From contig JAWBRA010000004.1 in NCBI GenBank assembly GCA_038844785.1, positions 1,496 through 65,495 of the forward strand: a DNA stretch of 64,000 nucleotides. The letters run 5' to 3'. Below, one piece after another: positions 889 through 40,036 of this stretch. The stretch comes from Candidatus Caldarchaeum sp. (GTDB lineage Archaea; Thermoproteota; Nitrososphaeria_A; Caldarchaeales; Caldarchaeaceae). A program made the position numbers and the translations under genes. Each line of letters starts with the position of its first letter. Position 1 is the stretch's first letter. Below the pieces are notes generated by a model, which was given only the letters and a program-made list of their open reading frames with translations, had not been told where the DNA came from and ran no database searches.

Positions 889-1200
889 GTGAGGGTTAAA
901 TTGCCCAACTGGACGCTTAGTAAAGAGCCGACACCTGTCTGCAACCCTCTCTGCAGGTTCTTCAGATGCGCCAAGAAAGTCCTTGACTTCCGACACGACC
1001 CGCCGTGGTGCAACTGGGTTGACGCACCATGCATAGGCTACCAATGTCCCTACGCCCAGTGCAACCAGATGAAGCTGCTGCCGGACGGCCGGTGCGGGCT
1101 CTTCGTCAAACGTAAAACCGTCGAGGAAGAGGCGGAGCTGAAGCTCCAGCCGTTAGCTGCTTCGAAGGCACGTAAGAAGCTCGACAGGCTCGGGCTGTAA
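889..1200 (+). CDS. small cysteine-rich protein (9 Cys, CxxxC/CxxxxC spacing), possible metal-binding; hypothetical
   Basis: ORF translation with regularly spaced cysteines; basic C-terminal tail; sits between the surface-protein gene and cofE on the same strand. Confidence 0.3.
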   Translation: MRVKLPNWTLSKEPTPVCNPLCRFFRCAKKVLDFRHDPPWCNWVDAPCIGYQCPYAQCNQMKLLPDGRCGLFVKRKTVEEEAELKLQPLAASKARKKLDRLGL

Positions 1201-1980: not shown

Positions 1981-1988
1981 TTTTAAAA
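1981..1988 (+). promoter_or_regulatory. TATA-box-like element (TTTTAAAA) about 28 nt upstream of ATG 2013, implying a leaderless transcript
   Basis: AT-rich octamer in otherwise GC-rich context at canonical archaeal spacing. Confidence 0.4.
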
Positions 1989-2012: not shown

Positions 2013-3125
2013 ATGTATAAAGGCGGCCGCAAAGCTGTGAGCACAGTCATAGCCGCGATGATAGTAACGGGGGTTTTGCTGGCGTTGTTCAGCGGCCTCT
2101 TATCCGTTCAAACCCGCTTACATCAGGCCGAGGTTGAAGCCGTCAGAAGAGAGGCTGAGAGAGCGATGGAAGCACCGTTCCAAATATACTGGATAAACAG
2201 CACGCATGTGAGGCTCTTTAACAACCACAGCAGCGTACCAGTTATTCTAAGGTTTTGGATAACTTCAGGTGCAACGGTTTCGGTGACAAGCCTAGACCCA
2301 TCCATTTATTCGGTCGGGCCTGGAACGTTCAAAGATGTGAAGGCCGCCGACCTGCCGCGGGTAGTTAACAAGGTTTACAAAGTTGTTTCCGAGAGGGGGA
2401 GCGTTTTCGTCGTGGGTGACATGCCGTCTGAACCCTTCTCCCTCTTCAAGATGTTAGTAAGCGAAAAGCAGGTCAGGCCTGGTTTCACAAGCTCCTCTCA
2501 AGGACCGTTGACAAGCATATTGCTCGGAACCGGGCCAGAGTTCGGTGGAGGGCAGGTAAGCCTTTCATGCGTCTCAGCCTTCCCACCACCAGCATCATGC
2601 GTAGGATGGAGTATCTCGTTCAACCCATCAAGCCCTGTGTATGTTCCGTCGGGTGGAGCCTTGGTAGTAAACGTGCTGGGGAACATACCTGTCGGAACAC
2701 CTTCAGGAACATACTTCATCCGCCTCCGCGCCGACACGGGGGGTTTTGTGAAAGAGTTTCTGCTACAGGTGATGGTGGGAGATTTTACCTTCGCTGTAAA
2801 CCCCGGCTCGATTACTATAGGACGGGGTTGCGCCGGATCGGTGACTCTGTCAATAACGCCGACAAACTATGGAGAATCCATCTCCTTCAGAGTGCTCTCC
2901 GTGACTCCTGCCGACGCCAGGTTTCATTTCGCGTTCACGGCAAACCCGCTCGACCTAAGCCACGGTCAATCAAGCACAAGCCTGTTGATTTACATCAATT
3001 TCGCGACACCTAACACGGCTGTAACTAGAACGGTAGTTGTGCAGGCCTACGACGGCTTAGGTCCTTCAAAAACTGCTTCGATAACCGTAACGGTGAACCC
3101 CAGGTCTGCTACTGGAAACTGTTAG
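2013..3125 (+). CDS. large pilin-like protein with archaeal class III (type IV prepilin-like) signal peptide
   Basis: N-terminus MYKGGRKA|VSTVIAAMIVTGVLLALFSG: basic patch, Ala cleavage context, then an about 20-aa hydrophobic helix. The rest is Ser/Thr/Gly/Val-rich beta-type sequence. Confidence 0.6.
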   Translation: MYKGGRKAVSTVIAAMIVTGVLLALFSGLLSVQTRLHQAEVEAVRREAERAMEAPFQIYWINSTHVRLFNNHSSVPVILRFWITSGATVSVTSLDPSIYSVGPGTFKDVKAADLPRVVNKVYKVVSERGSVFVVGDMPSEPFSLFKMLVSEKQVRPGFTSSSQGPLTSILLGTGPEFGGGQVSLSCVSAFPPPASCVGWSISFNPSSPVYVPSGGALVVNVLGNIPVGTPSGTYFIRLRADTGGFVKEFLLQVMVGDFTFAVNPGSITIGRGCAGSVTLSITPTNYGESISFRVLSVTPADARFHFAFTANPLDLSHGQSSTSLLIYINFATPNTAVTRTVVVQAYDGLGPSKTASITVTVNPRSATGNC

Positions 3126-3228
3126 GATGGCCAAAGTAGTACCAGTCCACTATCACCGTAAAAAAAGTACAGTATATCCAAAAACCGCTCGACTCAAACT
3201 CATATACCAGAAATGCCGACCCCTCGCC

Positions 3229-3672
3229 ATGAAGGGTCGGTCTTCGGTTGGGTTAAGCCCTCTGGTTGCTGTGATACTGTTGATAGCCATAACGGTCGCT
3301 GCAGCGGTGGTGGTGGCAGGCGTTTTCTTCAACCTCAGCAGCATAGCCGGCAGAAGGCCGACAGCAATCATCGACCAGATAAAGCTCGTCGCGACCCCTG
3401 CTGGAGCAGGAACGTGGGCGGTTGTCATCAAAAACACAGGCGACGTGAGAATTACAGGCCTCTCTACTCCTACGTTCCCCGATGGATGCTCGGCGGCCGC
3501 CGGATGGACCTGGAACCCCTCAACAAACGTTAACCCCGGCGCGACCACCGCCGGCACTGGTAGCGCGTCTGGATGTACGCTAGGAAACACCTACCGTATA
3601 TCAATAACAGTGACCTTCCAAGACGGTTCAACACAGGTTTTGGCAACGGCGGTAACAGCATCAATAGCCTAA
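3229..3672 (+). CDS. archaeal type IV pilin / archaellin-like protein (class III signal peptide)
   Basis: MKGRSSVGLSPLVAVILLIAITVAAAVVVAG matches the archaellin/pilin N-terminal consensus. The listed ORF begins at 3127, but the internal Met at 3229 gives the canonical prepilin N-terminus. Confidence 0.6.
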   Translation: MKGRSSVGLSPLVAVILLIAITVAAAVVVAGVFFNLSSIAGRRPTAIIDQIKLVATPAGAGTWAVVIKNTGDVRITGLSTPTFPDGCSAAAGWTWNPSTNVNPGATTAGTGSASGCTLGNTYRISITVTFQDGSTQVLATAVTASIA

Positions 3673-3716
3673 ACCCATAAACATTTTTTAAAATAAACCT
3701 GCAAAGACTTAAAAAG

Positions 3717-3724
3717 GTTATAAA
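3717..3724 (+). promoter_or_regulatory. TATA box (TTATAAAT) with A-rich BRE-like upstream, about 27 nt before ATG 3747
   Basis: aaaaaggttataaatcat motif in the 75-bp intergenic region. Confidence 0.45.
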
Positions 3725-3746
3725 TCATTCCACACCCAGACGACGG

Positions 3747-4151
3747 ATGGCTGTGAAAACCGGTGGAATCAGCTACGTAGCCGGAGTCCTCCTCGTCCTA
3801 GCCGTAACCGTCTCGACCATAGCCCTTTACACTACGGTGGTGGGATTCCAGTCCCAAACCATCCTCAGCCTCTCAGCCCTCGACATACGCAGAGCAAGCG
3901 AAAGCCTCATTATCGTCGAATACCACAGACCAACCAACACTTTAGTAGTCTACAACAACGGGCTCATCCCGACATGCTTCGTCGAAATAACCGTCGCCGG
4001 AATGGGCGTGGTGTACAGCAACCCATCCTGCACCCCAATCCCACCAAATCAAGCCACAACCCTAACCCTAGCACTTATAAACCCGCCACAAACACTCACA
4101 CTAATAGCCAGAACAATCCACAACAAAATACTCACATACACAATCAGCTAA
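3747..4151 (+). CDS. small pilin-like protein (class III signal peptide) with Thr/Pro/Asn-rich C-terminal low-complexity tail
   Basis: MAVKTGG|ISYVAGVLLVLAVTVSTIAL N-terminus; third consecutive prepilin-like gene. Confidence 0.55.
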   Translation: MAVKTGGISYVAGVLLVLAVTVSTIALYTTVVGFQSQTILSLSALDIRRASESLIIVEYHRPTNTLVVYNNGLIPTCFVEITVAGMGVVYSNPSCTPIPPNQATTLTLALINPPQTLTLIARTIHNKILTYTIS

Positions 4152-4201
4152 ACAGCAAAAAGACTTATACCAACCCAGCCAAAAAATAACACGGGAAACA
4201 A

Positions 4202-5128
4202 TTGGCGGCAAAGACAAAGAAAGAAATACTCAAACTCCTCAAAGAAGACGAAGAATTCCGATACGCAGTAGCAGGACTCATAGGGCTGGAGGAAACCCTG
4301 AGAAGACTGGACAAACTCGACCAAAGAATGACAGAACTCCACGAACAACAGGTAAAACTCTGGGAGGAACTCAGAACCCTGAGAGAGGGCCAGGAAAAAC
4401 TCTGGGAGGAGGTCAGAAGCCTAAGAGAGGGCGAGCACAGGCTTTGGGAGGAGGTGAAAAGCCTTAGAGAGGGTCAGGAAAAGCTTTGGGAAAACCAAGG
4501 CAAGCTATGGGAGGAGGTCAAAAGCCTAAGGGAAGGGCAGGAGAAGCTGTGGGAAACCCAAAGCAAACTCTGGGAGGAGGTTAAGAGCCTTAGAGAAGGT
4601 CAGGAAAAGCTTTGGGAGAATCAAAGCAAGCTATGGGAGGAGGTCAGAAGCCTTAGAGAAGGGCAGAACAGGCTGGAGGAATCCATGATCCGCCTTCAAG
4701 ACGCCGTTACACTGCTGACTCAGGCTCACAGGGAGTTGGCGAAACAGGTTGGCGCCCTCTCCGAAACCGTTGGCTTCGGGCTTGAGGACATAGCTAAAGT
4801 CGTTGTTCCTGGCTGGCTCCAAAGGCATGAGGGAATAGTGATGGCGGAGGAGTTCGTCCGCAGATGGATAACGGTGGACGGGGAGGAGATAGAGGTAAAC
4901 CTTTACGGCGAAGGGGTGAAAAACGGCCGGAAACTAGTCATCGTCGGCGAGGCCAAGTCGAGGATATACAAGCGTGAGGTTGAGGCATTTGACGCATGGG
5001 CTGAGAAGGTATCTGCGAGCGTCGGCGGGGAAGTGTACAAGTTCATGTTCGGATACCTCATACATCCGTCAGCCGAGGAAGAGGGAAGGAGAAGAAAAAT
5101 AACGCTAATAGCGTCCTACATGCGTTGA
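4202..5128 (+). CDS. coiled-coil protein with about 9 tandem 14-aa repeats (KLWEEVKSLREGQE) and a C-terminal putative PD-(D/E)xK nuclease-like domain
   Basis: DNA-level 42-bp (and 21-bp half) repeats at about 4350-4680 with synonymous variation. C-terminus has ITVDGEEIEVNLYGEG...KLVIVGEAKSR, a D...E-x-K pattern in beta-strand context. Confidence 0.55.
   Translation: MAAKTKKEILKLLKEDEEFRYAVAGLIGLEETLRRLDKLDQRMTELHEQQVKLWEELRTLREGQEKLWEEVRSLREGEHRLWEEVKSLREGQEKLWENQGKLWEEVKSLREGQEKLWETQSKLWEEVKSLREGQEKLWENQSKLWEEVRSLREGQNRLEESMIRLQDAVTLLTQAHRELAKQVGALSETVGFGLEDIAKVVVPGWLQRHEGIVMAEEFVRRWITVDGEEIEVNLYGEGVKNGRKLVIVGEAKSRIYKREVEAFDAWAEKVSASVGGEVYKFMFGYLIHPSAEEEGRRRKITLIASYMR
4350..4680 (+). repeat. 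in-frame 42-bp tandem repeat array (about 9 units) inside CDS 4202..5128
   Basis: Repeated gggaggaggt(c/t)a(a/g)aagcct(a/t)agaga(a/g)gg(c/t)cag... units visible by eye. Confidence 0.7.
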
Positions 5129-5203
5129 GAGAATTTTAAACGAACAGCGAGGCTATCCAGTATACCCAAAAGGCGTGATTATTAATGCTACGGCTCTAAA
5201 CCT

Positions 5204-5751
5204 GGGACTGTCAACTTAAGGTCTATGGCCTGGGTCTTTCTATTCGTTGGGGTGGATAGAGTTGGGGTTGGCCTAGGCCGTCTTATAGGTTTCTTCGGTG
5301 ATAGGAATGTTTTTCCCCGTCTCAGGACGTCTCCGTGGGTTTAGGGCTGTCGGCGTTAGGCTATATGTCGAGGGGCTCAGGAGGGTAGCTGGGATGTTAT
5401 GCGAGCTAGGGTTTCAGGTAAGCCTTGAGTCTGTCAGGGGTTGGTTCCATATCTCGTCAGGAGGGCCTATGTATGGGCTGATAGCCGAGTGTATAAGGTT
5501 TCTTGAGGTGGTTAGGGTTAGGTACGCTAGTAACCCTGCCGTCTACAGGGATAGAGTTCCATGGTATGGATGGCCTATGAAGGTTCTGGGCTTGAGGAGG
5601 GTGGAGACGTTCGGCAGGAGGAACACGATAGAGTCATGGTTCAGCGGGCTGAAGAGGAGGATAAAACAGTTCAACACGTGCTCCCCAACATACAGGCCGA
5701 AGGTACCGGAGAAGTGGATAAAGGCATGGGTGTCATTAAGTTGACAGTCCC
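5204..5751. mobile_element. IS6-family insertion sequence derivative (internally deleted, about 548 bp) with perfect 16-bp terminal inverted repeats GGGACTGTCAACTTAA and 8-bp target-site duplication CTAAACCT (5196-5203 and 5752-5759)
   Basis: TIRs at 5204-5219 and 5736-5751 are exact reverse complements. The flanking 8-bp direct repeat matches IS6-family TSD length. The internal ORF has an IS6-like HTH and C-terminal N-x-IE-x7-KRR motif but lacks the DD catalytic core. Confidence 0.65.
5298..5744 (+). pseudogene. truncated IS6-family transposase (N-terminal HTH plus C-terminal E-motif region; central DDE segment missing)
   Basis: GMLCELGFQVSLESVRGWFH resembles the IS26 Tnp HTH. RRNTIESWFSGLKRRIKQFN resembles NNxIExxHxxxKRR. 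Length is 148 aa against about 230 aa for intact IS6 transposases. Confidence 0.5.
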
Positions 5752-6056
5752 CTAAACCTCGTCGCCAAACTGAAGGCTACCTCACCCTTGGCCACAGCCC
5801 GTCTCACATACCTGATGTGGATAGAAACACCTAAGGCCAGAACAAAGACTTCAACCGCTAAGCCCAGCGATATGTTGAGGAAAAACGTGAGGGGAACCAG
5901 CAGAATGATTGAAACGATTGCTTCACCGGGGTTTTCGACGGTGTTCACATATCTTCTCCGTCTTTGACTCTCCAGCGCGGTCGACGGTCCAAAATCTTTC
6001 TCGAGCTCCTCCACCATCCCAAAACCGCTCTCTAAATCTGCCCAAAAAGGCGAAAC
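5736..6056 (-). pseudogene. partial paralogous copy of the FlaJ/TadC-like membrane-protein gene (equivalent to about residues 120-250 of the 6156..7544 product), truncated by the IS insertion
   Basis: Translation ...WADLESGFGMVEELEKDFG...RRRRYVNTVENPGEAIVSIILLVPL... aligns with ...GEDLESGFGVVEKVEKYLE...WRRYVDTVETLGEAIVSIILLVPL... of the intact gene. DNA similarity is visible (5913-6060 vs 7046-7190). The stop codon is supplied by the IS terminal repeat. Confidence 0.55.
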
Positions 6057-6155
6057 TCATGGCTTAGATGGCAATACTTGGTCTAAAATGAACACGGGAA
6101 ACCACTGGTCATGCGGAACGTGAACCAGGGAGGTAGTCACGAAACCCCGCATGCA

Positions 6156-7544
6156 CTAGACAAAGAGCGAAGCTATTGAGTAGGCGACGAGCGTGGCTAT
6201 TACTCCTGCACCAGCCCTCCAGACGGCTGCAACAGTCTGGTCTTCGGTCTTGGAAACCGCCACCCCCAGACTGAAGGAAACTATGAGTGCGTTTGGCAGT
6301 ATGGGTTCAAGGGACGGCGTTATGACAAGCTTTTGAACCTCACTTGAGACTTCAGGCGGTAGTGACGTGAACGGCATGATTGCGAAGCTTGAAACGGCTA
6401 TGATTGCCGCGCCGCTTGCGATGGCTAACGCGTCGTAAAGCTTCATCCTTGCTCTTGCGTTGGTGAAGCTAAGGTAGATTGTTATGGCTAGTCGGGCCAT
6501 CAGGCTAAGAGCTTCCGCGCCCAACCCGCCTAAACGAGCCAGCTTGACGGTTTCGATGGACATTCTCATGAACCGGTTCAACGGCTTTACTTCAATACCT
6601 CTCACGATAGCCTTTGCGTACCTAGCGTAGCGCGGGTCGGCAACCATCTCCAAGCTCTTGCCCACAGGGTACCCCGCCCTAAGCCGTGCCGCCACGCTGT
6701 CGAGAAGCAGGAAGGAAGACTCTCCTTCTGAAACACAACGCCTGATATATCGAAAGTGTACGAACAATCCCCAGCCCAGAAGGAGAAGACCGATGGCGGG
6801 CGGAATCATCACCAACGACGTGTTGAGAAAGAACATGAACAAAAATGCTCCAGACACGGCTATGAGAGCTGTTGAGGTGTAGACAATTATGCGTGGGATG
6901 TCAACCAGATGCATAGGCTCGCTTGCAGACGCAATAGTATAGAAGACCGCCGCAGCACCCACTGAAATGAACACGGAATAAAAGGGGGGGAAACCTCCCA
7001 ATATGCCGCCCACGACGTACATCAAAGGAACCAGTAGTATGATTGAGACGATTGCTTCTCCGAGAGTTTCGACGGTGTCGACATACCTTCTCCATCTCTC
7101 GCTCTCCCTCGATATAGATTGTTCCAAATACTTCTCAACTTTTTCCACGACTCCGAATCCGCTCTCCAAATCCTCTCCTAGGGAACCTATCAACAGAGAG
7201 AACTCGCGGCTCGGATGAACGTATTTCTTGAAGCTCTCAGCCAGAGTTGTTTTTTCCCCGACTCTTCTCAGATAACCCGCCTCATGTGAGAGCTTGGCGA
7301 TTATTTCTCGCTTATGCGCCGCCTCCGTCAAAGCATGCAGCACCGTCTTGCCGCTTCTCAAGATGATGTACAGTATCGCAAGAAAATACGTCTGCTCCCT
7401 CTCGGCCGCGGCCTTTTTCTCAGAGTCTGAAATCCTCCGTCGAAGCAAAAGAACCGCTACGGCGAATGATACAATCGATATATGAGGCCAGTAGCTGGAC
7501 ATGAAGCTGAGCAAAAAACGACCTATCGCTTGGGTTTCAAGCAT
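6156..7544 (-). CDS. FlaJ/TadC/PilC-family polytopic membrane protein (type II secretion system F-domain), pilus assembly platform
   Basis: 462 aa with multiple TM helices and two cytoplasmic helical domains. Sits in an operon with the PilB/FlaI-like ATPase. Confidence 0.65.
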   Translation of the reverse strand: MLETQAIGRFLLSFMSSYWPHISIVSFAVAVLLLRRRISDSEKKAAAEREQTYFLAILYIILRSGKTVLHALTEAAHKREIIAKLSHEAGYLRRVGEKTTLAESFKKYVHPSREFSLLIGSLGEDLESGFGVVEKVEKYLEQSISRESERWRRYVDTVETLGEAIVSIILLVPLMYVVGGILGGFPPFYSVFISVGAAAVFYTIASASEPMHLVDIPRIIVYTSTALIAVSGAFLFMFFLNTSLVMIPPAIGLLLLGWGLFVHFRYIRRCVSEGESSFLLLDSVAARLRAGYPVGKSLEMVADPRYARYAKAIVRGIEVKPLNRFMRMSIETVKLARLGGLGAEALSLMARLAITIYLSFTNARARMKLYDALAIASGAAIIAVSSFAIMPFTSLPPEVSSEVQKLVITPSLEPILPNALIVSFSLGVAVSKTEDQTVAAVWRAGAGVIATLVAYSIASLFV

Positions 7545-7555
7545 GACGCCAGCAC

Positions 7556-8503
7556 CTAAATCTTCTCTACCTCTATGCCGAATGTCTCACCTGTTTTAAA
7601 CGCGTTATCCTCCACGTCCGCTCCAGCGATGAACCATCGAACGCGGCCCACAACACCTTGGATGGCTGTCTTCTCGATGTCAAACCTTTTGACCGTCCAC
7701 GAGACTATGTCAAGTGAGGTAACCCTGTACTTGACTGTGTATATCCTTGTCTCAGACTTCTCGCCGCTTATTGCTACAATGTCGAGGAGGTGTTTGGTTC
7801 CGCTTATGCCGATAACTTCAACTTTCTCCCTTACTTCAAACCCCTCTGAGATGAGTTTTCTGATGAGTATCTTCAAAGGGTTGGCTGACTCTATCAGGCT
7901 AAGACCTTGGTCGGTCAGCTCGTATTCTCTGAGAATCATCTGGTCAGCATTTTTTAGTTCGTCGAACCATTCGCATGAAAGACATTCAGCAAGGTAAAGA
8001 GGTTCTGTGAAGATGTTTCCGCACGTGTTGCAGACAAACCTGAAGCCCGCGGTGTTTAAGCTTTTTTCAAGGGTATCTCTACACTTGGGACATACGTCCA
8101 AAGTTTTGACGACGTTTTCAGGTATTACCGCACCGCAGCTATGCATAAAGATGAGAGATTTTGTGATGTCTTCAGACCTGCACGACGTGCAAGCTGTCCG
8201 CGGGTTGAGAAGCGCGCCGCTACATTTAGGGCATCTTAATAGTTTTCTCGAAAACTTTGACCTGAGAAGGTTGTTGTTAACAAGGAAGTCAAGTCTTTCC
8301 ACAAGTTGTTGAACTGACGTGTTTGCTGGCAAATCAGACGAGAGCCTGACCTCGTTAAAAGGCTGGATGACTTCGAAAAAAGTATATGGTTTTCCCTGCC
8401 TAAACATCTCGGCAACACGCATGAGGATCGCAAAATCCTCGGGCTTTAAGCTACTCTGCGACAACTTCCTCCCATCTTCGCTGTTGGTCAACTGCTTTTG
8501 CAA
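7556..8503 (-). CDS. winged-helix-like N-domain plus double zinc-ribbon (CPKC..CTSC, CPKC..CNTC, CLSC) protein of unknown function embedded in the pilus operon
   Basis: Cys pairs in the translation. N-terminal helical HTH-like segment. Lies between the ATPase and the membrane-protein genes. Start may be the internal Met at 8422, which removes the 53-nt overlap. Confidence 0.45.
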   Translation of the reverse strand: MQKQLTNSEDGRKLSQSSLKPEDFAILMRVAEMFRQGKPYTFFEVIQPFNEVRLSSDLPANTSVQQLVERLDFLVNNNLLRSKFSRKLLRCPKCSGALLNPRTACTSCRSEDITKSLIFMHSCGAVIPENVVKTLDVCPKCRDTLEKSLNTAGFRFVCNTCGNIFTEPLYLAECLSCEWFDELKNADQMILREYELTDQGLSLIESANPLKILIRKLISEGFEVREKVEVIGISGTKHLLDIVAISGEKSETRIYTVKYRVTSLDIVSWTVKRFDIEKTAIQGVVGRVRWFIAGADVEDNAFKTGETFGIEVEKI

Positions 8504-10022
8504 GTTCCTCCGCCCTCATTTTAGCATTTTGCTCAAGAAGTTTTTCAATGATGGCAACATTCAACTCGTATCTTCTTCTCAGCTTTGCATCGTTTACAAG
8601 CGTTGGGGAGTTCAAGGCCAGCTGTCGCCGGTTCTCGGGGAAAAATCTATTCAGCGACTGGTCGTACCATGATATTAAATGCTCCTTGCCGACTTTCTCG
8701 ATCTCCCAAACACCTATGACTCTTCTGCCTCTAGGAGTTCCTCTTATCAACACAACGACGTCAAGGAAGCTGAGTTCTTCAGGTAACACGCCCATGCTGA
8801 CCGACGTTAGCCTCTGGTAGACATCTTCGAGGCCTTCGGCATGTATTGTCGAGGCCATGCCATGGCCTGTTGCGGCCGCGGAAAACATGACCCTAGCCTC
8901 TAATCCTCTAACCTCGCCCACAACCGTGTAGTCGGGTCTATGTCTTAGGCTGAGTCGCAGTATGTCGGCGAGGCTGTAGGCTGTTTCGCCGAGTGTTCTT
9001 CGGGTAACGAACCTGTGCCAGTTTTTGTGCCAAGAAAGATTGATCTCTGGATGATAGTCCTCGAGCGTGAGGATTTTGGCGTTGAAGGGTAGGAGCTGGA
9101 GCATGGCGGACAGGAACGTGGTTTTCCCACTTCCCGTCGGCCCAGCCACGATTACGAACTTCTTCGCCTCCAGCATCGTCCAGATGTATGCCGCAGTTAT
9201 TGGGTTGACTGTTCCGTTTCTGATGAGGTCTAAGATTGTGTAGGGCGATCGTGGAAACTTGCGGATGGTTATTGTGCTGGCGCCGGGTGTAAGCTCTCCT
9301 GCATATGTTAATGCAATCCTGTCGCCGTCATGTGTCATAACCTCGGCTGAAGGCTTTGCGATGCTCAGCTCGGCACCGTTCCTCTCAGCAAGAAGCCTCA
9401 CCTGCTTGTCCAGCTCCTCAGCCGTGAACTCGATGTTCGTCTCAATCCAAAGCAGGTCGGGATGTCTTCTGTGTATCACATAGGCTGGCCCAGGCTTGGT
9501 CACGGTTATGTCTTCCAGCTCCTCGTCACGTATCAAAGGCTCAAGCTTCCAGCTGCCCTTCAAATCCTTGACAACATGATATGTAACAGTTTTGAGCTCT
9601 ACTTCATCAAGCTCCAGGTCCTTGAGAATCTTTGAAGGCTCAACACCCTTCTTCACGTAGGCCTCCTCTATCTCGGCGACAATCCGCGCCAGTCTTTCGT
9701 CCAGAGCCGGTTCCTCCACAACGTATTTCACAGACCCATCCTTTTCAATTATCTTCACACTTAGGATTTCATCCACAGTATAATGTTCGATTACAGTTGG
9801 TTCAACGGTCTCTTGAGCAGGATGTGTTTCCTCCTCCTTTTGCATGGGTTTACGACGTCTTCGAAGAAAAGCAAAAGTTACTAAGACGGCTGCTCCTACG
9901 GGTGCAGCAACTATGGATGCGTTTAAGGGACTGGAGAGGATGAAACTGATAAAAATCAGGAATAGGGAAGTCACGATAGCGGCTACCTGTGATAGCGAGG
10001 AGAGCAGCTGCTCTAAGAACAT
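8451..10022 (-). CDS. type II/IV secretion-system ATPase (PilB/FlaI/VirB11/GspE family) with N-terminal hydrophobic extension
   Basis: Walker A VIVAGPTGSGKTTFLSAML, Walker B/His box region, and typical N-terminal domain. The first about 55 aa contain two hydrophobic segments. A TATA element 30 nt upstream supports the 10022 start. Confidence 0.8.
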   Translation of the reverse strand: MFLEQLLSSLSQVAAIVTSLFLIFISFILSSPLNASIVAAPVGAAVLVTFAFLRRRRKPMQKEEETHPAQETVEPTVIEHYTVDEILSVKIIEKDGSVKYVVEEPALDERLARIVAEIEEAYVKKGVEPSKILKDLELDEVELKTVTYHVVKDLKGSWKLEPLIRDEELEDITVTKPGPAYVIHRRHPDLLWIETNIEFTAEELDKQVRLLAERNGAELSIAKPSAEVMTHDGDRIALTYAGELTPGASTITIRKFPRSPYTILDLIRNGTVNPITAAYIWTMLEAKKFVIVAGPTGSGKTTFLSAMLQLLPFNAKILTLEDYHPEINLSWHKNWHRFVTRRTLGETAYSLADILRLSLRHRPDYTVVGEVRGLEARVMFSAAATGHGMASTIHAEGLEDVYQRLTSVSMGVLPEELSFLDVVVLIRGTPRGRRVIGVWEIEKVGKEHLISWYDQSLNRFFPENRRQLALNSPTLVNDAKLRRRYELNVAIIEKLLEQNAKMRAEELAKAVDQQRRWEEVVAE

Positions 10023-10047: not shown

Positions 10048-10056
10048 TTTATAAAA
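10048..10056 (-). promoter_or_regulatory. TATA box (TTTATAAAA) about 30 nt upstream of the ATPase start at 10022
   Basis: AT-rich nonamer in the divergent intergenic region. Confidence 0.4.
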
Positions 10057-10135
10057 ACTTGAGAAAAACTTGGAGGGGCTAGCTTGGGAATAGGACATAT
10101 GAATTATCGTGCATATACCCGAGTAGTATTACAGC

Positions 10136-10144: not shown

Positions 10145-10165
10145 CACGTGTTGTTGTGGTGGGTG

Positions 10166-10735
10166 ATGCCAACAACCAGCTTCTCGTCAAGAGTTGAGGC
10201 GGCGCTGGCTGCGGTTGAGCAGGGTGTTGAGCCTGAGAAAGTTGTTAGAGAACTGTCTTGGAAGGAGATGGAGGAGTTAGTCTCCGCCGGCTGCAGCCGT
10301 GCCGGCTTCAAATGCGTCAGGGACCTGCGTCTTAGCTTTGGAGGTAAACGTATCCAAGCAGATGTGGTCGCTGCAACGCCAAGCCTTTGTCTTGTCATAG
10401 ATTGTAAGAGATGGAGGAAAAGTTTGTCGGGGCAGGTTCTCAGCACGACAGTTATCAAATCCGTTGAAAGGACTAAGATTGTGGCTGACTTTTTGGGCAG
10501 CCAGTACCCGGGGGAATGCTTGGTGTTCTTCGCTCCTTTGATGATATCGCTCTACGAGCCTGACAAACGCATTGTGGCGGGTGTGTTCGTTCTTTCGGTT
10601 AACGCTTTGACCGGTCTTCTCAGAAACTCCGAGAATTTGCTTGCAGGGACGACGATAGTGAAAAAGCTCAGCCCCCGCTGGCTGGGATTTTTCGAAAGCT
10701 ACAACTTAAATCAAAGCAGGTTGAAAAAGGTTTAG
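10166..10735 (+). CDS. hypothetical protein with putative PD-(D/E)xK nuclease-like core (ADVVA...LVIDCKRW)
   Basis: ORF translation; the D...(D)xK motif arrangement is only suggestive. Confidence 0.35.
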   Translation: MPTTSFSSRVEAALAAVEQGVEPEKVVRELSWKEMEELVSAGCSRAGFKCVRDLRLSFGGKRIQADVVAATPSLCLVIDCKRWRKSLSGQVLSTTVIKSVERTKIVADFLGSQYPGECLVFFAPLMISLYEPDKRIVAGVFVLSVNALTGLLRNSENLLAGTTIVKKLSPRWLGFFESYNLNQSRLKKV

Positions 10736-34052: not shown

Positions 34053-35513
34053 TTGCGTTTTGAATTAGACATGACAACTATGGACGACGGCTCTGAAAGC
34101 TTTGGCCAGGAGGCGAAAGGTTTGGAGGAGGGTGAGACAACCGAGCTTCTAACCGCTTTGAAAAACATGGGAGTAGGCCCTAGTCAGGTAAAGAAGTACG
34201 TCAAAGCAGCGTTGAGGCTTAGGGAGCTGGAGAAACAGTATGGAAAAAGCTACAACGTGCTCGTCAGAGATTATGAGAAAAAGTTCAGGGATAGCGTGAA
34301 GCTTGAGTACACCATAAACGAGCTTCTCGAGAAAAGAAAGCGTATCGAAGACGACTTGAAGGTTTACATGGAGCAGCACAAACTCACGCTCGAGACAATA
34401 AACAAAGTCGTCGCCGTCCTCAAAACGCTTGAACAATATTCTGTTGACGTAAACAACCTCGAAAACCTTGCCAAAACAGCTGCCAAAATGTCTCAGGCAG
34501 GGCTTGATGTGAAAACGGTGTTCGAACGGTTCGCCCGTCTCGAGGAAGCTGAAAACAGCTTAAAGGCTGTTAACGAGAAGATTTTGGAGCAGCAGATGAA
34601 ACTTTCTCAGATTCAGTCCGAGCTCGCTGAAAAAGAGGAAAGGCTGCGTAAAATTACCCAGTGGATGCCTGAGCTGGAAAACCTCGAGCAGGTGAGGGAG
34701 ACGCTGGAAAACAAGGTTTCCGAGCTTGAAACCAAACATGCCGAACTCTCCAAAAAGCTCGAGAAGATGGCCAAAGAATACGAGACCCTATATGGTTTCA
34801 AGGGTGATGCGGAGGCCGTCTTCAAGGCCATAGAAGAAAAGAAGGCTGAGCTTGAGAGGCTTAACGATGAAATCGAGAGAAAAAGGGAGACCGTGGAGAT
34901 TTTGGAAGAAGAAGTCTCATCCGCCCGCTCGCTGTTGATGCTCCTCCAAAACCCGGAGCTGGTCAGAAGGGAGGATCTCGAGACGCTTTCACGCCAGCTT
35001 GCAAACGTAGCCAGCGTTAAAGCTGGTGAGATACCTATTCTAAAGCCTTTGGAACAACCTCTCGTGGAAAACGTTAGGAAAAGAGTAGTTGAACTCGTTC
35101 TTCCAGTGATAAAGAACGACCTCATACCGCGCTGGGTTTTTGAAAAGCTTGAGAAAGAGTTTAAGGAGGTTGTTGCCAAGAAGGCGCAGCTGGAGGAGGA
35201 GAACGAAAAGCTGAAAACCGAGCTGCAGCGATACACTGCCGCAAAACCCGTCTCATCCGAAGCTGCTCCTACTCAATCTGCCGTCTTCTTCAGGCTTCGG
35301 AAGAAAGCGATACTCCTTCAAGACGACAGAGGTGTCAGGGTTAGGCTTAAATGCCCATACTGTCAATCGACCAATCTTCTGGTCCTTCCTTCTAAGATGG
35401 AGTTAGAGAGATGCATGGGCGACGGCGAACTGCTGGTGACGACATGTAATGGTTGTGGAAAAGACATCTCAGTGGACCCTGTCTACCTACATGAGAGGTT
35501 CTACAAGGGGTGA
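34053..35513 (+). CDS. long coiled-coil protein with C-terminal zinc-ribbon (CPYC...CNGC)
   Basis: Heptad-rich translation for about 400 aa; four Cys at the C-terminus. Confidence 0.5.
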   Translation: MRFELDMTTMDDGSESFGQEAKGLEEGETTELLTALKNMGVGPSQVKKYVKAALRLRELEKQYGKSYNVLVRDYEKKFRDSVKLEYTINELLEKRKRIEDDLKVYMEQHKLTLETINKVVAVLKTLEQYSVDVNNLENLAKTAAKMSQAGLDVKTVFERFARLEEAENSLKAVNEKILEQQMKLSQIQSELAEKEERLRKITQWMPELENLEQVRETLENKVSELETKHAELSKKLEKMAKEYETLYGFKGDAEAVFKAIEEKKAELERLNDEIERKRETVEILEEEVSSARSLLMLLQNPELVRREDLETLSRQLANVASVKAGEIPILKPLEQPLVENVRKRVVELVLPVIKNDLIPRWVFEKLEKEFKEVVAKKAQLEEENEKLKTELQRYTAAKPVSSEAAPTQSAVFFRLRKKAILLQDDRGVRVRLKCPYCQSTNLLVLPSKMELERCMGDGELLVTTCNGCGKDISVDPVYLHERFYKG

Positions 35514-39150: not shown

Positions 39151-39426
39151 TCACAGCCTTAGACCGAAAACTGCGGCAAACCTCTCAAAACGTCTGAACT
39201 CGGAGAGATAGCTCAACCCTTTCTCAGTTATTGTGTACAGGGTTTCAGACTCACCTGTTTTCTCTACCAAGCCTTTCTCCAAAAGTATGTTCAGGTATTT
39301 GACAAGCCTGTCGTAGGAGAGGTTGGCGTCCGTCATAATTTTAGTTGGTCTCGCATATTTTTGTGAGGCGATTGACTCCAGTATGTCGGCGTATATTCTA
39401 GCCTTAGAACGATAGTCTTTCACCAT
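39151..39426 (-). CDS. small winged-helix transcription regulator
   Basis: ARIYADILESI...LSYDRLVKYLNILLEKGLVEK wHTH; internal Met start preferred. Confidence 0.4.
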   Translation of the reverse strand: MVKDYRSKARIYADILESIASQKYARPTKIMTDANLSYDRLVKYLNILLEKGLVEKTGESETLYTITEKGLSYLSEFRRFERFAAVFGLRL

Positions 39427-40036
39427 GCATGAGCACCAGTAACACAGCTGTGAGGAAGAAAGCCAGCGAGACCATCTGGACAAAATGAGCCACCAGATAC
39501 AACAGGATCGATAAAGGCGTCAGCAAGAAGAGTAGATGGCTTACCAAAAGCAGCGAGAATGCTATCAAAACATAGCTCGAACGGTTTTCGCCAGAGACCT
39601 TTAGTAGCTGGTAAACGACGAACATCAGCATGACGGCCGAAAGAGCTTCGAAGAGAGGGTTGTATATGAAAGATACTGGAGCCAGTAGAGCCGCTCCACT
39701 ATTTTTCTTCAAAGGATAGGCTGCGTAAAGATAGAGAAACACAACGTAAGCGCTGAGCCTCACAACCGAGTAAACAAACTCCTGAACCTGAAGGAGTAGG
39801 AGTGGAAGTAAACGCAGCGGCGGTGTTGGGGTAGATGCCGTAAAAGCCCAGCTTACCAAGATGACACGAGCTATCATTGCCGCTGCCATCAGATAGAAAC
39901 CGAGTGAAAAAAGAAAAAGAGACCTAGCTCCAACTCTACGCCATGCTAGGAAGGCTATAGACGCTATCATGAAGCTGAATACGAAGCTTACAGCCTCGAA
40001 CACAATATCCAGTCTTAACAGTGTTGGAACTATCAA
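39404..40036 (-). CDS. polytopic integral membrane protein (6-7 TM), unknown function
   Basis: Strongly hydrophobic translation; upstream of the wHTH gene. Confidence 0.45.
   Translation of the reverse strand: MIVPTLLRLDIVFEAVSFVFSFMIASIAFLAWRRVGARSLFLFSLGFYLMAAAMIARVILVSWAFTASTPTPPLRLLPLLLLQVQEFVYSVVRLSAYVVFLYLYAAYPLKKNSGAALLAPVSFIYNPLFEALSAVMLMFVVYQLLKVSGENRSSYVLIAFSLLLVSHLLFLLTPLSILLYLVAHFVQMVSLAFFLTAVLLVLMHGERLSF

What the first reader, a model, noticed from the sequence alone, without database searches (positions are those of the whole stretch)
2013..10022. Archaeal type IV pilus (Ups/Aap-like) assembly locus with three prepilin genes, FlaJ/TadC platform, PilB/FlaI ATPase and an embedded zinc-ribbon protein
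Three consecutive plus-strand genes carry class III signal peptides; one encodes a large 370-aa pilin-like protein. On the opposite strand there is a secretion ATPase, a Cys-rich WH/zinc-ribbon protein and a FlaJ/TadC-type membrane protein. This is the component set of crenarchaeal adhesive or UV-inducible pili. The locus also holds an IS, a partial gene duplicate and a repeat protein, so the region looks accessory.
Basis: partly seen in the sequence, partly recalled or inferred. Interest (0 to 1): 0.55.

Follow-up and report, generated by a model that had tools for sequence, protein, structure and literature searches.

The report
Caldarchaeum type IV pilus gene locus
This is an intact type IV pilus assembly locus from a hot-spring aigarchaeon (Candidatus Caldarchaeum), of a kind already catalogued in its relatives, so it is a correct but largely ordinary finding with a few unstudied details.

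Summary
Window 2013-10022 contains two convergent operons. One encodes three prepilin-like proteins (370, 147 and 134 aa). The other encodes a secretion ATPase (523 aa), a Cys-rich TackOD1 protein (302 aa) and a TadC/FlaJ platform protein (462 aa). Between the operons lie a coiled-coil repeat gene, a 548-bp IS6-derived element with perfect 16-nt inverted repeats and an 8-bp target duplication, and a decayed tadC fragment.

The organism is Candidatus Caldarchaeum (Aigarchaeota/Caldarchaeales), not a crenarchaeon of Sulfolobales or Thermoproteales. No component reaches the NCBIfam cut-off for Ups, Bas or archaellum proteins.

The ATPase-TackOD1-TadC module matches the double-Zn-ribbon arCOG06883 (TackOD1) association reported for thaumarchaeal pilus loci (Makarova 2016; Galperin 2018). 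The core layout recurs in all 10 of the 12 relatives' loci that extend past tadC, so the pilus system is a lineage core feature. Only the IS and the coiled-coil gene are accessory.

Less-described details:
- A clade-specific N-terminal membrane anchor on the ATPase.
- A predicted winged-helix / Zn-ribbon / PD-(D/E)xK-fold architecture for the TackOD1 protein.
- Replacement of the pilin cassette between close relatives.

Verdict: new member of a known kind, low to moderate interest.

The parts
2013..3125 (+). Large prepilin-like protein (370 aa). Likely a minor pilin or adhesin. First gene of the pilin operon.
3229..3672 (+). Small prepilin (147 aa from ATG 3229). Proposed major pilin.
   Evidence: N-terminus MKGRSSVG|LSPLVAVILLIAITVAAAVVVAG. 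TIGR02537 arch_flag_Nterm scores 25.9 bits, above its cut-off of 20. Pilin_N gives 2e-4, and there are weak UpsA and BasC hits. The helix is nearly invariant in orthologues, and the gene occurs in 1-3 copies in relatives.
3747..4151 (+). Small prepilin (134 aa). Second pilin family.
   Evidence: N-terminus MAVKTGG|ISYVAGVLLVLAVTV. Orthologues keep [KR].[GA][LVI]SY[IV]VGVLLVL. Weak hits to Pilin_N (0.035) and BasB (4e-4). 93% identical to the L005 orthologue.
4202..5128 (+). Coiled-coil repeat protein (308 aa) with a globular C-terminal domain. Accessory passenger gene, not a core pilus component.
   Evidence: It carries 14-residue LWEEVKSLREGQEK repeats (42- and 63-nt DNA units). The protein is 259, 308 or 336 aa in relatives. 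It is present in L005, L008/L011, L009 and L015, and absent in L012, L013, L014, L016, L017 and L018. PADLOC family C3a181 matches the N-terminal part only.
5204..5751 (.). 548-bp IS6-family derived element containing a truncated transposase ORF (5298-5744, +).
   Evidence: Perfect 16-nt terminal inverted repeats GGGACTGTCAACTTAA. An 8-bp target duplication CTAAACCT lies at 5196-5203 and 5752-5759, and L005 has the empty site. transpos_IS6 scores 1.2e-9 and covers only profile positions 112-194 of 202.
5752..6155 (-). Decayed tadC duplicate (pseudogene remnant). The 93-aa ORF at 5736-6017 runs into the IS.
   Evidence: 40-56% identical to residues ~132-290 of the relatives' TadC proteins, and 75% identical at DNA level over 146 nt to the window's own tadC. 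The same remnant sits in IS-free relatives L005 and L009, broken across reading frames.
6156..7544 (-). TadC/FlaJ-type polytopic platform protein (462 aa).
   Evidence: Pfam T2SSF scores 27.2 bits (cut-off 25.2). The NCBIfam UpsF model aligns over residues 10-409 at 1e-21, far below its cut-off. About 7 hydrophobic segments. 94% identical to L005, with dN/dS 0.15.
7556..8464 (-). Cytoplasmic winged-helix / TackOD1 multi-Zn-ribbon / PD-(D/E)xK-fold protein (302 aa; 315 aa if the TTG at 8503 is the start).
8451..10022 (-). Secretion ATPase (523 aa) of the FlaI/GspE2/CpaF superfamily, with a clade-specific N-terminal membrane anchor (residues ~5-55, followed by RRRRK).
   Evidence: T2SSE at 4e-31. 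The FlaI model gives 1.5e-70 and BasE 1.6e-59, both below cut-off. PDB matches are 2oap (5e-61) and FlaI 4ii7 (1.6e-54). The hydrophobic N-terminus scores KD >=2.2 in all 9 clade orthologues and is absent from 7 more distant homologues. Walker A (GPTGSGKTT) is readable in the sequence.
10048..10057 (-). TATA-like box TTTTTATAAA about 30 nt upstream of the ATPase ATG. Putative promoter of the ATPase-TackOD1-TadC operon.
   Evidence: Read directly from the sequence. Inference only; no archaeal promoter tool was available.
1981..1988 (+). TATA-like box TTTTAAAA about 28 nt upstream of the 370-aa pilin ATG. Putative promoter of the pilin operon.
   Evidence: Read directly from the sequence. Inference only.

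Best explanation
The locus is a functional type IV pilus (T4P) biogenesis system of a Candidatus Caldarchaeum species. It belongs to the TACK 'clade 4' group and to the subtype that carries a TackOD1 (arCOG06883) protein.

Proposed mechanism. Steps 1-3 are inferred from homology; step 4 is the least certain.
1. The pilin operon (370, 147 and 134 aa) yields prepilins with class III signals. A PibD/FlaK-type prepilin peptidase encoded elsewhere in the genome trims them.
2. The hexameric ATPase is held at the membrane by its own N-terminal hydrophobic anchor. It docks on the TadC platform and uses ATP hydrolysis to extract processed pilins from the membrane and add them to the filament base.
3. 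The 147-aa PilA/UpsA-like pilin forms the shaft, possibly together with the 134-aa pilin. The 370-aa protein has a pilin helix plus three beta-sandwich domains and is a minor pilin or adhesin. The likely role is adhesion, biofilm formation or cell-cell contact.
4. The TackOD1 protein is translationally coupled between the ATPase and TadC genes. It is proposed to be a cytoplasmic, Zn-stabilised accessory or regulatory subunit of the motor complex. In Thaumarchaeota and other lineages the same module is fused to receiver domains and serves as a signalling output.

The IS6 remnant, the tadC pseudogene and the coiled-coil gene lie between the two convergent operons and interrupt nothing.
For: - Family hits: T2SSE, T2SSF and TackOD1 all score above Pfam cut-offs. 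arch_flag_Nterm scores above its NCBIfam cut-off.
- Class III N-termini are unique to these three genes in the window and are conserved in orthologues.
- Synteny: the ATPase-TackOD1-TadC module is in all 12 relatives' loci, and the convergent pilin genes are in all 10 that extend past tadC. This holds down to 37% TackOD1 identity, while genes outside the locus change.
- All genes are under purifying selection, with dN/dS 0.07-0.45.
- The genes overlap or abut: 14-nt overlap ATPase/TackOD1, 11-nt gap TackOD1/TadC.
- Three of four more distant TackOD1 homologues examined also sit in operons with T2SSE and/or T2SSF genes.
- REC-TackOD1 fusions exist (PMC5847659).
- The literature places arCOG06883 in thaumarchaeal T4P loci.
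- The IS is a clean intergenic insertion with a target duplication.
Against: - There are no experimental data for any member of this subtype.
- No prepilin peptidase is encoded in the 64 kb.
- FlaFind and PilFind could not be run. The 147- and 134-aa proteins lack the canonical K/R at position -2.
- The TackOD1 protein has a winged helix and a nuclease-like fold. These would also fit a DNA-binding regulator rather than a machine subunit.
- The pilus function (adhesion versus Bas-like or Ups-like roles) is not determined by sequence.
- In two other MAGs the contig diverges at the IS edge. In some genomes or assemblies the two operons are therefore not adjacent.
Confidence: 0.78

Rival explanations
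1. Bindosome-like (Bas-type) pseudopilus. The machine builds a short envelope-embedded structure that positions substrate-binding proteins, not an extended adhesive pilus.
For: - BasE is the second-best NCBIfam hit for the ATPase, at 1.6e-59.
- BasC (3.5e-6) and BasB (4e-4) are the best or near-best hits for the two small pilins.
- The component count, three pilin-like genes plus E plus F, mirrors basABC-basEF.
- Abby et al. describe a thaumarchaeal pilus 'related to Ups and Bas'.
Against: - All scores are far below the Bas cut-offs (202 vs 1000, 27 vs 260, 20 vs 230 bits).
- UpsA scores about the same as BasC.
- No Pfam or NCBIfam solute-binding family hit was found for any of the ten locus proteins scanned. 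Their N-termini were not individually checked beyond the window-wide class III motif scan.
- One pilin is a 370-aa three-domain protein, unlike BasABC.
Confidence: 0.1
2. The TackOD1 protein is primarily a DNA-binding transcription factor that controls the pilin or ATPase operons. It is not a physical part of the motor.
For: - Relatives are fused to receiver domains, like classical response regulators.
- Makarova 2016 lists many T4P-linked regulators.
Against: - The presumed recognition helix (SVQQLVERLDFLV) is acidic to neutral, and by my count from the sequence residues 1-65 carry a net negative charge.
- The N-terminal domain is the least conserved part of the protein.
- The gene is wedged between the ATPase and tadC genes with overlap, which is typical of stoichiometric subunits.
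- Tandem copies of the C-terminal domain in relatives suggest a binding or oligomerisation module.
Confidence: 0.25
3. Ups-like DNA-exchange pilus. The nuclease-fold/wHTH TackOD1 protein handles DNA at the cytoplasmic face, as in a competence or DNA-transfer function.
For: - UpsF is the only NCBIfam model hit by the TadC (1e-21), and UpsA hits the 147-aa pilin.
- The C-terminal domain has a PD-(D/E)xK fold similar to AF1548 and NucS.
Against: - The scores are far below the Ups cut-offs.
- No UpsX or Ced homologue was detected in the locus.
- The canonical (D/E)xK of strand 3 is not conserved (YTVKY / YTVFY / YDVGY). The Asp of strand 2 is Asn in one orthologue. Nuclease activity is therefore unlikely.
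Confidence: 0.06
4. The locus is a decaying, strain-accessory island disabled by IS activity.
For: - An IS remnant, a tadC pseudogene and a variable repeat gene lie in the middle of the locus.
- Contigs of two other MAGs diverge at the IS edge.
Against: - All six core ORFs are intact and under purifying selection.
- The IS is intergenic and has a target duplication.
- The locus is conserved across the order.
- GC content matches the surroundings.
Confidence: 0.04

Closest known systems
Thaumarchaeal/TACK T4P loci with arCOG06883 = TackOD1 (Makarova, Koonin & Albers 2016, PMC4858521; Galperin et al. 2018, PMC5847659)
   Same: - An ATPase and a TadC occur together with a cytoplasmic double-Zn-ribbon protein.
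- The TackOD1 Pfam model is hit above cut-off.
- There are 11 Cys forming 5 CxxC plus an H..C motif.
- Stand-alone and wHTH-TackOD1 architectures are both described.
   Different: - This one is in Caldarchaeales (Aigarchaeota).
- The ATPase carries an N-terminal membrane anchor. I found no mention of this in PMC4858521 (term search); supplements and figures were not seen.
- The C-terminal PD-(D/E)xK-fold domain of the TackOD1 protein is not mentioned in the TackOD1 passages I read in PMC5847659.
- Whether the Ca. Caldiarchaeum subterraneum locus is already listed in their supplementary tables could not be checked.
Sulfolobales Ups pili (UpsX/E/F/A/B)
   Same: - Same clade-4 T4P superfamily.
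- UpsF is the only NCBIfam model hit by the TadC, and UpsA weakly hits the 147-aa pilin.
- Simple layout of ATPase, platform and small pilins.
   Different: - All scores are far below the equivalog cut-offs.
- No UpsX detected.
- This locus has an extra TackOD1 gene and a 370-aa pilin.
- UV induction and a DNA-exchange role are untested.
Sulfolobus bindosome assembly system (BasABC-BasEF)
   Same: - Three pilin-like genes plus ATPase plus platform.
- BasE, BasC and BasB are among the best NCBIfam hits.
   Different: - Scores reach only 10-20% of the cut-offs.
- No class III substrate-binding proteins were detected nearby.
- The large adhesin-like pilin and the TackOD1 protein are absent from Bas.
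Archaellum motor ATPase FlaI/ArlI and A. fulgidus GspE2 (PDB 4ii7, 2oap)
   Same: Closest solved structures of the ATPase core (1.6e-54 and 5e-61). The FlaI model is the best NCBIfam hit.
   Different: - The FlaI model scores 238 bits against a cut-off of 550.
- No archaellins or FlaH, FlaG, FlaF, FlaX or FlaCDE.
- The N-terminal transmembrane anchor is not in those proteins' matched regions.

Membership tests
Archaeal type IV pilus (TFF superfamily) assembly system | PilB/FlaI-family secretion ATPase (T2SSE) with an intact P-loop | tested here: met
   PF00437 at 108 bits (cut-off 24.9). Walker A GPTGSGKTT is readable in the sequence. PDB hits 2oap and 4ii7.
Archaeal type IV pilus (TFF superfamily) assembly system | Polytopic TadC/FlaJ/PilC platform protein (T2SSF) | tested here: met
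   PF00482 at 27.2 bits (cut-off 25.2), a marginal pass. The UpsF model aligns over 400 residues at 1e-21. About 7 hydrophobic segments.
Archaeal type IV pilus (TFF superfamily) assembly system | Substrates with class III (prepilin) signal peptides | tested here: met
   My own motif and hydrophobicity scan finds 3 of 1148 candidate starts, exactly these genes. The N-termini are conserved in orthologues. TIGR02537 scores above its cut-off for the 147-aa protein. FlaFind and PilFind themselves were not available.
Archaeal type IV pilus (TFF superfamily) assembly system | Prepilin peptidase (PibD/FlaK/EppA, peptidase A24) | tested here: not met
   None is present in the 64-kb window. It is often encoded elsewhere in archaeal genomes, so this does not exclude the system.
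TackOD1 (PF18551 / arCOG06883) | Match to the Pfam model above the gathering score | tested here: met
   66.5 bits against a cut-off of 32, E 3e-18.
TackOD1 (PF18551 / arCOG06883) | 11 conserved Cys: five CXXC motifs plus an HXXC-type motif | tested here: met
   Cys at 78/81, 92/95, 110 (with H108), 125/128, 145/148 and 161/164. All are invariant in the 8-sequence alignment. The His-Cys spacing here is HxC rather than the published HXXC.
TackOD1 (PF18551 / arCOG06883) | Location within a type IV pilus locus | tested here: met
   It lies between the ATPase and TadC genes here and in all 12 relatives' loci, though the ATPase gene is off the contig in L019. It is also T4P-linked in 3 of 4 distant homologues.
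Ups pilus (Sulfolobales) | Orthology to UpsF and UpsA (NCBIfam equivalogs) | tested here: not met
   UpsF 77.3 bits against a cut-off of 400. UpsA 26.7 bits against 130.
Ups pilus (Sulfolobales) | UpsX gene in the operon; UV inducibility | not testable with these tools
   No extra conserved gene is present apart from TackOD1. I had no UpsX sequence or model to test against. Induction needs an experiment.
Bindosome assembly system (Bas) | Orthology to BasE, BasC and BasB | tested here: not met
   BasE 202 bits against 1000, BasC 27 against 260, BasB 20 against 230.
Aap adhesive pilus (Sulfolobales) | AapA/B pilins, AapE/F and AapX | not tested
   No Aap models or sequences were available in the libraries I searched. 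Nothing named Aap appeared among the hits.
Archaellum | FlaI/ArlI equivalog plus archaellins and FlaH, FlaG, FlaF | tested here: not met
   FlaI model 238.5 bits against a cut-off of 550. No archaellin or FlaH hits in the locus.
IS6 family insertion sequence | Terminal inverted repeats, 8-bp target duplication, DDE transposase | tested here: inconclusive
   The inverted repeats (16 nt, perfect) and the 8-bp duplication are present. The transposase ORF is truncated, matching only profile positions 112-194 of 202, and scores 38 bits against a cut-off of 125. It is a non-autonomous derivative.

The most novel reading that the evidence does not exclude
The Caldarchaeales system may be a distinct T4P subtype. 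Its motor ATPase would be permanently membrane-tethered by its own transmembrane anchor. The wHTH / Zn-ribbon / PD-(D/E)xK-fold TackOD1 protein would be an integral third subunit of the motor. This subunit would either couple the pilus machine to nucleic acid (DNA uptake or exchange) or act as the docking point for two-component signalling. That would explain why the same module serves as a response-regulator output domain in Thaumarchaeota.
Probability: 0.12. Interest if true: 0.6.

Novelty: new member of a known kind. Interest (0 to 1): 0.3.

Why it matters
The locus adds a well-resolved Caldarchaeales example to the TackOD1-linked type IV pilus systems, none of which has been studied experimentally.

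Three details are usable leads:
- A clade-specific membrane anchor on the assembly ATPase.
- A predicted domain architecture for the TackOD1 protein, whose function the literature calls obscure.
- Clear evidence that pilin cassettes are swapped between close relatives while the motor module stays constant.

None of these overturns current understanding. They refine the annotation of an uncultivated hot-spring lineage and suggest how receiver-TackOD1 response regulators might act on pili.

Tried and rejected
- Rfam scan of the whole window: no hits.
- PDB sequence search with the TackOD1 profile: only chance-level Zn-ribbon hits.
- PDB sequence search with the coiled-coil protein: nothing meaningful.
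- PADLOC scan of the coiled-coil, Mrr-like, TackOD1 and 103-aa proteins: only coiled-coil noise and a C3a181 N-terminal hit. I rejected a defence-system reading.
- Search for a prepilin peptidase among all polytopic membrane ORFs in the window: none. The 210-aa candidate at 39404-40036 gives only a weak DUF7521 hit.
- Coiled-coil gene as a conserved pilus component: rejected, because it is absent from six loci of relatives.
- Pilin operon and ATPase operon joined only by an IS-mediated or assembly artefact: rejected, because IS-free relatives have the same adjacency.
- One look-up of encoding contigs (LysRS) found nothing on record.
- The genome-contig scan used only C-terminal-domain peptide patterns. 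It therefore returned only Caldarchaeales and says nothing about the wider TackOD1 distribution.

Full report
**What is there**

On the + strand:
- 2013-3125, 370 aa.
- 3229-3672, 147 aa. The longer ORF from 3127 is an artefact; MAG annotations and orthologues start at the ATG at 3229.
- 3747-4151, 134 aa.
- 4202-5128, a 308-aa coiled-coil repeat protein.
- 5298-5744, an IS6 transposase fragment.

On the - strand:
- 8451-10022, ATPase of 523 aa (T2SSE, 4e-31).
- 7556-8464, a Cys-rich protein of 302 aa (TackOD1 PF18551, 3e-18, above cut-off).
- 6156-7544, a TadC-type protein of 462 aa (T2SSF 27.2 bits against a cut-off of 25.2; the UpsF model aligns over 400 residues at 1e-21).
- 5736-6017, a 93-aa tadC-like fragment.

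The ATPase and TackOD1 genes overlap by 14 nt, and TackOD1 ends 11 nt before tadC, so the three form an operon. TATA-like boxes sit about 30 nt before the ATPase ATG and about 28 nt before the 370-aa pilin ATG. This promoter reading is inference only.

**Class III signals**

A motif-plus-hydrophobicity scan of all 1148 candidate starts in the 64 kb picked out only the three pilin genes. The next candidate had no hydrophobic stretch.

Across orthologues the N-termini are conserved as follows:
- 370-aa family: M..GGR[KR][AG]|[VI]S.V[IV]A
- 147-aa family: [KR]..G|LSPLVAVILLIAITV
- 134-aa family: [KR].[GA]|[LVI]SY[IV]VGVLLVL

The 147-aa protein passes the NCBIfam archaellin/pilin N-terminal domain cut-off. 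FlaFind itself could not be run.

**Organism**

The TackOD1 protein and the ATPase occur with identical sequence in several NCBI hot-spring MAGs named Candidatus Caldarchaeum sp.. The related loci fetched come from Caldarchaeum or Nitrososphaerota MAGs. This is an aigarchaeon, not a member of Sulfolobales or Thermoproteales.

**Conservation**

I ran tblastn with the window proteins against 13 fetched loci. These represent 12 distinct contigs (L008 and L011 are the same contig) from 11 GTDB species representatives plus one look-up.
- The ATPase-TackOD1-TadC module is in all 12 (in L019 the ATPase gene lies off the contig end).
- The convergent pilin genes (a 370-type gene plus two to five small pilins of the 147- and 134-types) are in all 10 loci that extend past tadC. 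The 370-type gene itself was seen in 8 of them: L008's contig ends before it, L013 shows none in the ~0.5 kb left, and L018 shows only its last 41 residues.
- This holds down to 37% TackOD1 identity, while genes outside the locus differ.

All core genes are under purifying selection against the 89%-identical relative L005, with dN/dS 0.07-0.45. The pilus locus is therefore a core trait of the lineage, not an accessory island.

The accessory parts are:
- **Coiled-coil gene.** It is present in four distinct loci of relatives and absent in six, and its repeat number varies, giving 259, 308 or 336 aa.
- **IS element.** It spans 548 bp (5204-5751) with perfect 16-nt inverted repeats and an 8-bp CTAAACCT target duplication. 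L005 has the empty site.
- **tadC fragment.** It predates the IS, because IS-free relatives carry it too, broken across reading frames.

**The Zn protein**

- It has 11 Cys arranged as five CxxC plus an HxC, all invariant. This is close to the published TackOD1 description of five CXXC plus an HXXC motif.
- The AF2 model has pLDDT 81.
- The canonical (D/E)xK is not conserved, so I consider nuclease activity unlikely.
- The presumed recognition helix is not basic, so DNA binding is doubtful.
- An exhaustive profile search finds 1779 cluster representatives. Many are ~320-aa proteins that align through TackOD1 and into the C-terminal domain. Several of the longer ones I read carry an N-terminal region consistent with a receiver domain, and one to three copies of the C-terminal domain (my reading of the sequences).
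- Three of four distant homologues whose contexts I examined sit with T2SSE and/or T2SSF genes.
- Makarova et al. 2016 reported arCOG06883 in thaumarchaeal T4P loci, and Galperin et al. 2018 called its function obscure. The association is therefore known. Neither the TackOD1 passages of Galperin 2018 that I read nor my term searches of Makarova 2016 mention the three-domain architecture, so this prediction appears to be new detail.

**The ATPase**

- Its closest solved relatives are A. fulgidus GspE2 and FlaI.
- Homologues form a tight clade of >=64% identity, followed by a gap to <=42%.
- All nine clade members carry an N-terminal hydrophobic segment (Kyte-Doolittle >=2.2) followed by a basic cluster. 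Seven more distant homologues do not.
- The nearest outgroup with a TackOD1 neighbour also has the anchor; a more distant one does not.
- One MAG annotation starts after the anchor, giving 464 aa.
- A term search of Makarova 2016 found no mention of such an anchor.

**The 370-aa pilin**

It evolves fast: 51% identity to L005 and 40% to L009, although L009's flanking CofE is 96% identical. This indicates cassette replacement.

**Comparison with known systems**

No NCBIfam equivalog cut-off is met for Ups, Bas or FlaI. No prepilin peptidase is encoded in the window.

The locus works like a simple TACK clade-4 pilus, and Abby et al. 2020 describe the thaumarchaeal relative as 'related to Ups and Bas'. 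It is not a member of the Ups, Aap or Bas families as defined. It is best filed with the TackOD1/arCOG06883-linked T4P loci.

**Verdict**

It is a new member of a known kind. Interest is about 0.3, resting on the anchored ATPase, the TackOD1 architecture and the pilin cassette swapping.

Noticed in passing
window 5204 (IS left edge); L001:14819, L002:7695: Contigs from two other MAGs carry the identical ATPase operon but diverge from the window exactly at the left end of the IS. They continue into unrelated genes (NMT1-type binding protein; PAC2/TGT). This is either IS-mediated rearrangement between strains or assembly chimeras at a multi-copy repeat.
   Followed up: partly
window 2013-3672 vs L009:14264-16834: In a relative whose flanking CofE, 103-aa and CarboxypepD_reg genes are ~96% identical, the 370-aa pilin is only 40% identical and the 147-aa pilin 61%. 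That relative also carries two extra small pilin genes. Synonymous divergence against L005 ranges from 0.09 to 2.3 across the locus. Together this points to pilin cassette replacement or recombination.
   Followed up: partly
window 9848-10022 (ATPase residues 1-58): The secretion ATPase has a clade-specific N-terminal membrane anchor. It evolves fast (50% identity to L005) but stays hydrophobic. One MAG annotation omits it by starting at Met60.
   Followed up: partly
window 10148-10735 (+): A 195-aa protein is transcribed divergently from the ATPase. It has weak Mrr_cat and NERD (restriction-endonuclease-like) hits. It is conserved next to the locus only in close relatives.
   Followed up: no
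window 889-1200 (+): A 103-aa Cys-rich protein has no family hit and is 96-97% identical in relatives. It lies between a CarboxypepD_reg-repeat surface protein with a C-terminal anchor (153-857, cut by the window edge; 564-565 aa in full) and cofE.
   Followed up: no
window 34053-35513 (+): A 486-aa protein has no Pfam hit at E<=1e-5. It shows weak coiled-coil/PspA-like similarity and a C-terminal Zn-ribbon region with weak similarity to TackOD1 (E 0.055).
   Followed up: no
window 4202-5128 (+): The coiled-coil gene varies in repeat number between relatives, giving 259, 308 or 336 aa. It is present or absent even between near-identical loci (L015 vs L016). Its C-terminal part (…IVGEAKS…) looks like a PD-(D/E)xK motif by eye; this was not tested.
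   Followed up: partly
window 1-64000: No Rfam family reaches its gathering score anywhere in the 64 kb. The rest of the window is housekeeping: LysRS, fumarase, POR, a class I aminoacyl-tRNA synthetase (tRNA-synt_1 family), RadA, citrate synthase and others.
   Followed up: yes
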